Origin: Stylophora pistillata
Taxonomy: Eukaryota
DNA: 64,000 bases
Reading direction: 5' to 3'
Assembly: GCF_002571385.2 (NCBI RefSeq)
Contig: NW_019217925.1
Coordinates: forward strand, 103,301-167,300
Numbering within the stretch: position 1 is the stretch's first letter; the number at the start of each line of letters is the position of its first letter. Both the position numbers and the translations under genes were made by a program. The notes beneath the pieces were generated by a model, which was not told where the DNA came from, did no database searches, and worked only from the letters and a program-made list of their open reading frames with translations. This document shows positions 23,530 to 25,230 of this stretch, in pieces.

Positions 23530-25230
23530 TTATGGCTCTCCAAGTGGTATGACAAATGAAATCTTGTCTCCAAATTCTCCCCAGCTTGCTCTATATTTCT
23601 GATAGATGACAATCCATGCTGTTAAACCGGCAAACCATATAAGAAATCCTACAGCTGACTTAATTACATCTGAAAGATATTCAAAATTATACCACACTGT
23701 TACTAACTTTTTAACTCCAACATTTTTATCAAAATTGAACTATATTGTTTGCATTTAATTTTGGTATGCTAAATGCAATATTATTGGCAGTACTTTAACC
23801 ACTGGGTTTCTAAAGGACAAAAAGGTTAGTAAAAAAAACAAAACAAGTCATTATATCTTTAAGTTATAATTACATCATTGAATAAAATCTTGCATTCTGA
23901 TTGCTTAATGTAGCAAGGTATTTAGCATGGAATTGTGAGTTGAAAACAAGGCTAAGTAATATTTTTCTGCTTCTATGTATACATAAAAACTATAAATAAT
24001 GTACAAGTCTTCTCAATTTTACTCAATTATGCAATTCAAGGAAAATCCATTACTGGACTTGTAAATTCTGTTTTAAATTGTATTTGAAAACTGACATCAC
24101 ACAAGTTGCAAAGCAATAAGTGCGATATTGGTTTTTGCATGCAATTTAATGTGGAATTCCCTTGTCAAGTAAGGAATTTTCCTATAATACTCGCACTTCA
24201 ATTCGCCAATTTGGCAGGCAATATTTCACTGTACAGCCAGTTAAATTCAAAAGTTTCTTTCACCTGAAATCTCCTTCCTGTCTGTTTGAGCCCAGGGATA
24301 AAATACATGTCTCCCTACCCTTGTTTTCTGGGTCTGTGCAATAAGTTAAGGAACCTAGTTTTTCAGTAGGGATTTATGGCCATGCACACTTTGCACTTGG
24401 ACCATAAATCTTTGAAGAAAAAAACTTGGTCCTTAACTGAAAGTACAGACTATGAAACTTGGGTAGTAAGAGGCGTCAATCCTGGAGTATCACAGGAGGT
24501 TATTACTGGTGATGAAAACAAACCTTTTAGAACCCAAACCTCTGACAATTTTGAAACATGAACTCCAGCAAGAATGAGTGTTTCTACTGTGTTGATCAAA
24601 TTTCCCTCACGTACAGATGGCTTTCAATTCATATCCTTGTAAACTTACAAGATTTCAGCTTTGATTGTCCAGTGAAGGTTGGTCTGATGAATGCCTCCCT
24701 AAAGAACCACACTATATTGATAAACCAGAGAAATGGCAGCAAAGCAAATCCTCCTAAGAAATGTGTTGACGTGAGTCAAGGAAAATAGACAAACAAGCGA
24801 AAAAAGAGTAAAAAATAAGGAAAATAATGCATTCAGGACTGTTAAACGGTCAAATTCTAGTGTGGGGTGGTGAAATATCTATGTTCTCTTGCTGTAGCCA
24901 GCGACTTCGATTTTCGACAATCTTAGCAAGACGTTGGAGTTCCCTTGTTCAGCACTGTAAAAAAAAAATTATCTATATATAACCATAACACGGGGAAACA
25001 TGCGATAATTCCAATCTTACGAACATTTACATTAGCATGCATGATCTGAAGTGATTGAAATGAAACGCCTGAGCGCTAGCATGTCAACTCACGAATCATA
25101 TCTATCAAAATCGACCATATAACCCAGCGTAAAAGTATAACCTGTGACCATAGATAAAAAGGAATATAAGTATGATATATTTTCTGCATAAGTTGACTTT
25201 CTCTTCGTCAGGAACTTTCCTCAAATCCAT
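23530..25230 (-). CDS. PSENEN: Gamma-secretase subunit PEN-2; exons 25230-25179, 24762-24649, 23669-23530; 101 aa
   Basis: [101 protein letters not shown]. Length 52+114+140=306 nt, the same protein length as human PEN-2. Confidence 0.95.
23870..24185. mobile_element. CpG-decayed long-hairpin element (same family as 37660-38850)
   Basis: Its 5' end aligns with 37670-37755. Hairpin at about 24040-24182 with apex cacAAgttgcaaagcaatAAgtg, a decayed GA-GTT-GCGAAGC-AAC-GA. Confidence 0.7.
24763..25178 (-). other. U12-type (minor spliceosome) AT-AC intron, PSENEN intron 1
   Basis: 5' end ATATCATAC. Branch site TTCCTTGAC with the branch A 13 nt before the end of the intron (..CAACAC). Only this junction restores RKYFLGGF. 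Confidence 0.85.

What the first reader, a model, noticed from the sequence alone, without database searches (positions are those of the whole stretch)
24754..25178. AT-AC minor-spliceosome intron in PEN-2 with an atypical donor, 9 nt from the human intron position
Seen: there is no usable GT donor after RKY. Splicing ATATCATAC...TTCCTTGACTCACGTCAACAC gives exactly 101 aa and places the next intron at c.166. The branch site matches the U12 consensus, but the donor deviates from RTATCCTT at +6 and +8. Exon 2 starts ATTTCTTAG, placing an AG at c.61. Known, from memory: the human PSENEN coding introns follow c.61 and c.166. Inference: a U12 intron that automated annotation would miss, and possibly a record of U12-to-U2 conversion with a junction shift.
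Basis: partly seen in the sequence, partly recalled or inferred. Interest (0 to 1): 0.7.

Follow-up and report, generated by a model that had tools for sequence, protein, structure and literature searches.

The report
Coral AT-AC intron with odd donor
This coral's gene for a gamma-secretase subunit has a rare AT-AC intron that is spliced correctly despite an off-consensus start signal shared with other corals, and it is likely the older, minor-spliceosome form of an intron that most animals, humans included, carry nine bases further on as an ordinary intron.

Summary
Confirmed. PEN-2 intron 1 (24763-25178, minus strand, 416 nt, c.52) is skipped in 77 raw reads from three runs and in contigs of two more (three studies); no rival junction is listed. 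It has AT-AC ends and a perfect U12 branch site 13 nt from the end, but its donor matches the U12 consensus at only 6 of 9 positions. The odd donor is inherited: 7 of 7 related loci with exon 1 read ATACCATTC, while six other minor introns found in this genome are canonical. The genome's single U6atac is the published, unexplained 'CC' type. Of 52 intron-bearing PEN-2 loci, 10 have the c.52 AC acceptor, 42 the c.61 AG acceptor, none both. Mis-predicted proteins of two unicellular holozoans hint that c.52 AT-AC is ancestral, and sea-anemone proteins look like an exonised donor; both points rest on protein only. A 3-codon U12-to-U2 shift has a published precedent (Trichinella/C. elegans). Annotation has not missed it: NCBI already holds the identical 101-aa protein. 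Verdict: a real U12-like intron, a new variant of a known kind; spliceosome dependence and direction of change are unproven.

The parts
25179..25230 (-). PEN-2 coding exon 1 (c.1-52)
   Evidence: junction reads
24763..25178 (-). Intron 1, AT-AC, 416 nt, phase 1 in Tyr18
25170..25178 (-). Off-consensus donor ATATCATAC (6/9 to RTATCCTTT); no stable duplex with this genome's U11 5' end
25155..25163 (-). U11-complementary run at +16..+24, 12 nt downstream of the usual register; role inferred
   Evidence: duplex -6.5 kcal/mol; also in L039, L043-L047, absent in L086
25143..25148 (-). Weak cryptic GT donor at +31; used by the 108-aa model P0003, not listed in reads
24830..24835 (-). TGAATG element shared with other corals (one mismatch in L086), upstream of a long AG-free pyrimidine stretch; role unknown
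24772..24785 (-). U12-type branch site, branch A at 24776
   Evidence: duplex with this genome's U12 -16.6 kcal/mol; one of 55 exact 14-mer matches in the genome, control 28
24754..24762 (-). First 9 nt of exon 2 (c.53-61), ending in the AG that is the acceptor position in c.61-type genes
24649..24762 (-). Exon 2 (c.53-166), Pfam PEN-2
23670..24648 (-). Intron 2, GT-AG, 979 nt, c.166
23530..23669 (-). Coding exon 3 (c.167-306 with stop), Pfam PEN-2

Best explanation
The 416-nt AT-AC intron at c.52 is spliced out of coral PEN-2 mRNA, likely by the minor spliceosome, and is likely the ancestral form of the GT-AG intron that bilaterians carry at c.61. Shown: the junction, the AT-AC ends, a perfect U12 branch site, and a conserved off-consensus donor. 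Inferred mechanism: the very strong U12/branch pairing recruits the U11/U12 particle; the 48K protein reads +1..+3; the weak U11 pairing at +4..+8 is tolerated, helped in this lineage by a U11 site 12 nt downstream. The CC-type U6atac makes no Watson-Crick pair with +6/+7 of canonical donors either, so little is lost at that step. Inferred history: both ends could move 9 nt at little cost to the protein, because a U12 donor read as exon gives Tyr-Ile-Leu, close to the native Tyr-Phe-Leu-Gly, and exon 2 already offers an AG at c.61; a GT at +10 would complete conversion to U2.
For: Junction reads. Single PEN-2 locus in the genome, so no retrocopy explains them. U11 x2, U12 and U6atac present. 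Branch 9/9 at 13 nt, U12 duplex -16.6. ATACCATTC in 7 of 7 related c.52 loci with exon 1, with 4 of 5 Watson-Crick pairs to U11 at +4..+8. 80 loci: 10 c.52, 42 c.61, 28 without an intron here; 32 of 33 c.61 loci with exon 1 have GT at c.62. Capsaspora model P0263 reads on from Tyr18 into K-S-T (codon 21 Thr, so no GT at c.62) and enters exon 2 through H-F-L-A-G; Syssomonas P0204 shows H-F-I-G. H18+F19 is the coral read-through signature and occurs in 0 of 42 c.61 loci. Anemone proteins read Y-T-I or Y-T-L, the translation of ATACCATT, where 206 of 214 joined proteins have F or Y. Precedent: PMC2846911 section 10. Conversion is held to run almost only minor to major (PMC10639083).
Against: The donor fails the stated U12 rule (RTATCCTT, only C to T allowed at +5/+6; PMC2846911). 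No canonical donor was seen at c.52 in any species. L086 keeps the donor and AC but has lost the branch A, and lacks the displaced U11 site. The 3' end also looks U2-competent: no AG for 75-106 nt before the c.61 AG. Retention of intron 1 (0.24-0.35) is not clearly above that of intron 2 (0.18-0.37). Polarity rests on two mis-predicted proteins, with no outgroup DNA. Thr19 also occurs in two non-anemone proteins (P0215, P0249). The six close coral loci are not independent of each other. TAG|G at c.61 is a classic insertion site (recalled), so independent gain is possible.
Confidence: 0.58

Rival explanations
1. The intron is a U2-type AT-AC or hybrid intron: the major spliceosome, or both machines, remove it, using an upstream branch point and the long pyrimidine stretch.
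For: AG-free pyrimidine stretch and shared TGAATG element; L086 lacks the U12 branch A; Capsaspora's Y-K-S read-through could be a U2-like AT donor; such introns exist (PMC1557818; hybrid class in PMC11347168).
Against: The donor does not resemble the U2 consensus beyond +1..+3; a 9/9 or 8/9 U12 branch is kept at exactly 13 nt in the window and in 4 of the 5 related loci scored.
Confidence: 0.15
2. Reverse direction: the c.61 GT-AG intron is ancestral, and corals gained a minor-type intron by sliding both ends 9 nt back, turning Y-T-I codons into the donor and the old acceptor tract into F-L-G codons.
For: c.61 is the commoner state (42 of 52); the last 9 nt of c.61 introns often read F-L/V/I-G by themselves; the donor is never canonical; L041, of unknown lineage, has a c.61 acceptor; PMC11347168 names a major-to-minor case.
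Against: Capsaspora and Syssomonas read-through signatures; F/Y19 is the ancestral residue (206 of 214); a 14-nt U12 branch would have to arise anew.
Confidence: 0.12
3. The two introns are unrelated: the c.52 intron was deleted in the bilaterian line and a new U2 intron was inserted at c.61.
For: Bilaterian c.53-61 codes F/Y-x-G with no donor scar; 28 of 80 loci lack any intron here, though many may be cDNA; sliding is called at most very rare (PMC10639083) and loss outweighs conversion in many cases.
Against: No locus has both; the anemone Y-T-I/L pattern suggests at least one real slide to the same position; a 3-codon shift is published.
Confidence: 0.15

Closest known systems
U12-type AT-AC introns
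   Same: AT-AC ends, consensus branch 13 nt from the 3' end, minor snRNA genes in the genome; T at -1 as described for U12-type introns (PMC7367187).
   Different: Donor 6/9 with +6 A, outside the stated rule, conserved across corals; a U11-complementary run lies 12 nt downstream in part of them.
Trichinella AT-AC intron / C. elegans EEED8.7 (PMC2846911, section 10)
   Same: U12 AT-AC intron matched by a U2 intron three amino acids away.
   Different: There the donor is canonical and one lineage lost the minor spliceosome; here the donor is off-consensus and the c.61 form is spread over many animals, vertebrates included.
CC-variant U6atac (PMC2396436)
   Same: This genome's only U6atac has the CC box, as do 10 of 31 sequences in that paper's alignment, Nematostella and Hydra included.
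   Different: The paper could not explain how it pairs with donors and did not link it to off-consensus donors; the six other minor introns found here keep canonical donors.
Minor-like and hybrid introns (PMC11347168)
   Same: Weak donor with minor-type branch; proposed as conversion intermediates.
   Different: Those are marked by AG at -2/-1; this intron has AT there and AT-AC ends.

Membership tests
U12-type AT-AC intron | Excised with AT-AC ends | tested here: met
   416-nt skip in 5 of 8 runs; 2-nt ambiguity allows AT..AC
U12-type AT-AC intron | 5' splice site RTATCCTT (C to T allowed at +5 or +6) | tested here: not met
   6/9; +6 A, +8 A; U11 duplex +0.6 and -0.3 against -3.1 to -5.6 for six canonical donors. 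Hence filed as U12-like, not as a textbook member
U12-type AT-AC intron | Branch site TTCCTTRAC close to the 3' end, no pyrimidine tract in between | tested here: met
   9/9, branch A 13 nt from the end, U12 duplex -16.6
U12-type AT-AC intron | U11, U12 and U6atac genes in the genome | tested here: met
   U4atac was not searched
U12-type AT-AC intron | Splicing depends on the minor spliceosome; lariat at the U12 branch A; intronIC score | not testable with these tools
   no knock-down, lariat data or intronIC available
U2-type AT-AC (type II) intron | Good match to the U2 donor except A at +1 (PMC1557818) | tested here: not met
   by inspection +4..+6 read TCA, not the U2 consensus; no PWM score was computed
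U2-type AT-AC (type II) intron | Upstream branch point with pyrimidine tract before the 3' end | tested here: inconclusive
   AG-free pyrimidine stretch present but overlaps the U12 branch
U12-to-U2 conversion with junction shift | Different intron types a few codons apart in an ungapped alignment, never together | tested here: met
   10 c.52 and 42 c.61 loci, none with both; ungapped to human
U12-to-U2 conversion with junction shift | U12 state ancestral by outgroup | tested here: inconclusive
   protein read-through only; no outgroup DNA

The most novel reading that the evidence does not exclude
A billion-year-old AT-AC intron whose donor is recognised outside the U12 consensus, with U11 binding 12 nt away from the cut and the CC-type U6atac tolerating the mismatch, slid 9 nt and became a U2 intron twice, in bilaterians and again in sea anemones, where the old donor survives as the residues Thr-Ile. 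It would be a natural reporter for the open question of how CC-type U6atac reads 5' splice sites.
Probability: 0.25. Interest if true: 0.75.

Novelty: new variant of a known kind. Interest (0 to 1): 0.5.

Why it matters
Intron sliding over more than one base is regarded as very rare, and pipelines score it as loss plus gain. This short, ungapped gene gives a clean 9-nt pair with a simple sequence reason for the shift, and it touches a human intron with known disease splice mutations. The conserved off-consensus donor, in an animal with CC-type U6atac, is a ready substrate for a puzzle left open in 2008. It does not change the protein or its annotation in this species.

Tried and rejected
Assembly error or private decay of the donor: rejected; X15 matches the donor region without change and related corals share the odd donor. 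Retrocopy as source of joined reads: rejected (one further hit, E 0.08, below cut-off, with stops). AG at 24754 with the +31 or +64 GT, or a micro-exon: no such joint listed. The GCC U6atac as a new finding: it is the published CC variant; no copy with the usual box was found. Donor pairing with U6atac nt 6-11 in a shifted register: perfect here (-6.5) but 8.7% of random tails do as well, and 33-59% for the other corals; not supported. Donor pairing with the TGAATG element or any intron stretch: no better than shuffles (16-195 of 200). Slow splicing: retention not clearly above intron 2. Finding other minor introns from the 14-nt branch pattern: uninformative, 30 of 55 matches examined, mostly repeats and chance. 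The six canonical donors were found by searching for the consensus, so that search could not have revealed other odd donors; two further E2F candidates were not confirmed by frame. Viral contigs gave no relative. Whether Capsaspora has a minor spliceosome: not found.

Full report
Observation. The gene lies on the minus strand. Exon 1 (25230-25179), exon 2 (24762-24649) and exon 3 (23669-23530) give a 306-nt CDS and 101 aa; exons 2 and 3 hit Pfam PEN-2. The protein is identical to P0288, named Stylophora pistillata in NCBI, so this is a pocilloporid coral gene. It is the only PEN-2 locus in the assembly. Intron 1 is 416 nt, starts ATATCATAC and ends in AC, 13 nt after the branch A of a 9/9 U12 branch motif.

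Transcripts. The 416-nt skip appears in 31, 25 and 21 raw reads of X22, X23 and X24 (one study; about 2% of each run was read), in a contig of X9 and in a contig of X19. X11 and X13 list no joint for this intron, and X15 covers the stretch in one unjoined contig. No other joint for intron 1 is listed. A cryptic GT at +31 with the AG at 24754 would give 108 aa; the Pocillopora meandrina model P0003 has this shape, but reads do not. From the depths, intron 1 retention is 0.28, 0.24 and 0.35 and intron 2 retention 0.21, 0.37 and 0.18: no clear sign of slow splicing.

Machinery. The genome has two U11, one full U12 and one U6atac gene. The branch site pairs with U12 at -16.6 kcal/mol; the donor forms no stable duplex with U11, whereas a run at +16..+24 does (-6.5). 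U6atac has GCC where the Rfam consensus has AAG, and no copy with the usual box was found. This is the CC variant of PMC2396436 (passages; supplement 3 parts 48-49; 10 of 31 aligned sequences), which the authors call difficult to explain. Six other minor introns, found in Derlin, NHE, E2F and SPCS2 genes and confirmed by reading frame, have RTATCCT donors; they were found by searching for the consensus. In the usual register CC-type U6atac pairs with none of them at +6 or +7. That U11 does not pair with +1..+3, which the 48K protein reads, is from PMC3584512 (passages).

Relatives. A scan of metagenome contigs with a 48-protein alignment kept the best 80 of 91 loci; many are the same or close species, and the patterns favour animals. 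Ten have the c.52 AC acceptor, 42 an AG at c.61, and 28 no intron here, many perhaps cDNA. All 7 c.52 loci that include exon 1 start ATACCATTC, which keeps 4 of 5 Watson-Crick pairs with U11 at +4..+8. The Porites model P0115 reads Y-T-I-H-I after Lys17, and P0003 reads Y-I-I, so the first form is likely the older coral donor and the window's form a family variant (inference). The displaced U11 run is in the window and 6 of those 7 loci (chance about 0.007 per 21 nt; the six are close relatives) and is absent in L086. L086 also lacks the branch A, and no reads were available for it. Of 33 c.61 loci with exon 1, 32 have GT at c.62 and L041 has GA. Human acceptor and donor positions c.62-1, c.166+2 and c.167-2 are in PMC8986338 (passages), and human and coral proteins align without gaps.

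Direction of change. No outgroup DNA was reachable, so this rests on mis-predicted proteins. Reading through a coral intron end gives H-F-L-G. Capsaspora P0214/P0263 and Syssomonas P0204 show H-F-L-A-G and H-F-I-G, and P0263 continues from Tyr18 with K-S-T, which excludes GT at c.62 if it is read-through. H18+F19 is seen in 0 of 42 c.61 loci, H18 alone in 1, though H18 alone occurs in four other read-through proteins. Actinia, Nematostella and Actinostola read Y-T-I, Y-T-L and Y-T-I, and the Actinostola read-through fits an AG at c.61. I read this as an exonised donor, but Thr19 also occurs in P0215 and P0249, and a search found no anemone transcript-derived protein to confirm it.

Mechanism. 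Shown: junction, ends, branch motif, conserved odd donor, CC-type U6atac, and the two mutually exclusive positions. Inferred: minor-spliceosome use (about 0.75), help from the displaced U11 site (about 0.35), c.52 ancestral (about 0.75), and a slide rather than loss plus gain (about 0.7). The slide is cheap because a U12 donor read as exon gives Y-I-L, one base from the native Y-F-L, and the last 9 nt of c.61 introns often read F-L/V/I-G. Two pairing ideas failed their controls.

Comparison. A U12-to-U2 conversion with a three-amino-acid shift is described for Trichinella and C. elegans (PMC2846911, section 10 and passages). PMC10639083 (passages) treats sliding as at most very rare and conversion as almost one-way; PMC3488318 (passages) reports support only for one-base sliding. 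PMC7367187, PMC11347168 and PMC1557818 were seen as passages. Searches for this case found nothing: 'U12-type intron' + PSENEN, 0 papers; 'minor intron' + PSENEN, 0; none of the 20 listed of 69 papers holds 'presenilin enhancer'; 'CC variant' + U6atac gave only the 2008 paper. Subscription papers, IAOD, MIDB and the supplements of the large intron surveys were not seen and may list this intron. The scan's index returned one unrelated note and nothing by sequence or words.

Verdict. Real and transcript-confirmed; it works like a U12 AT-AC intron but fails the donor rule, so it is filed as a new variant of a known kind. The annotation claim is not borne out for this species, and the shift has a precedent. 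Interest 0.5.

Noticed in passing
window 22099 downwards, minus strand; L039, L065, L070, L078, L086: A U2AF1-like gene (CCCH finger and RRM) follows PEN-2 in tandem here and in L039, but is head-to-head with PEN-2 in L065, L070, L078 and L086. Human PSENEN and U2AF1L4 share a bidirectional promoter (PMC6121907, passages). The pair looks like an old neighbourhood rearranged in stony corals.
   Followed up: partly
window 25358 onwards, plus strand: An SMG9-like gene (exon at 29158 matches SMG9 over 36 residues) starts about 130 nt from the PEN-2 start codon, head-to-head; similar sequence lies beside PEN-2 in L043 and L025.
   Followed up: partly
L041:2880-2953: A 74-nt intron at c.61 that appears to start GA instead of GT; frame excludes the nearby GT. 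No reads.
   Followed up: partly
L004:1501-1628: The genome's only U6atac is the CC type; other minor introns keep canonical donors.
   Followed up: yes
L118 (G000 C40:1018997 and 1018099): The Derlin-2/3-like gene has two consecutive minor introns, the first with AT-AG ends.
   Followed up: partly
L086:1832-2177: Same donor and AC end as corals but no U12 branch A; a weak in-frame GT at +16 with the c.61 AG is possible. It may be a hybrid or a conversion intermediate.
   Followed up: partly
window 23870-24230: Intron 2 holds short repeated elements; many reads there come from other loci (loose ends).
   Followed up: no
L089, L090, L098, L101, L103-L106: A dispersed repeat family contains a perfect 14-nt U12 branch motif (8 of 30 loci examined).
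   Followed up: no
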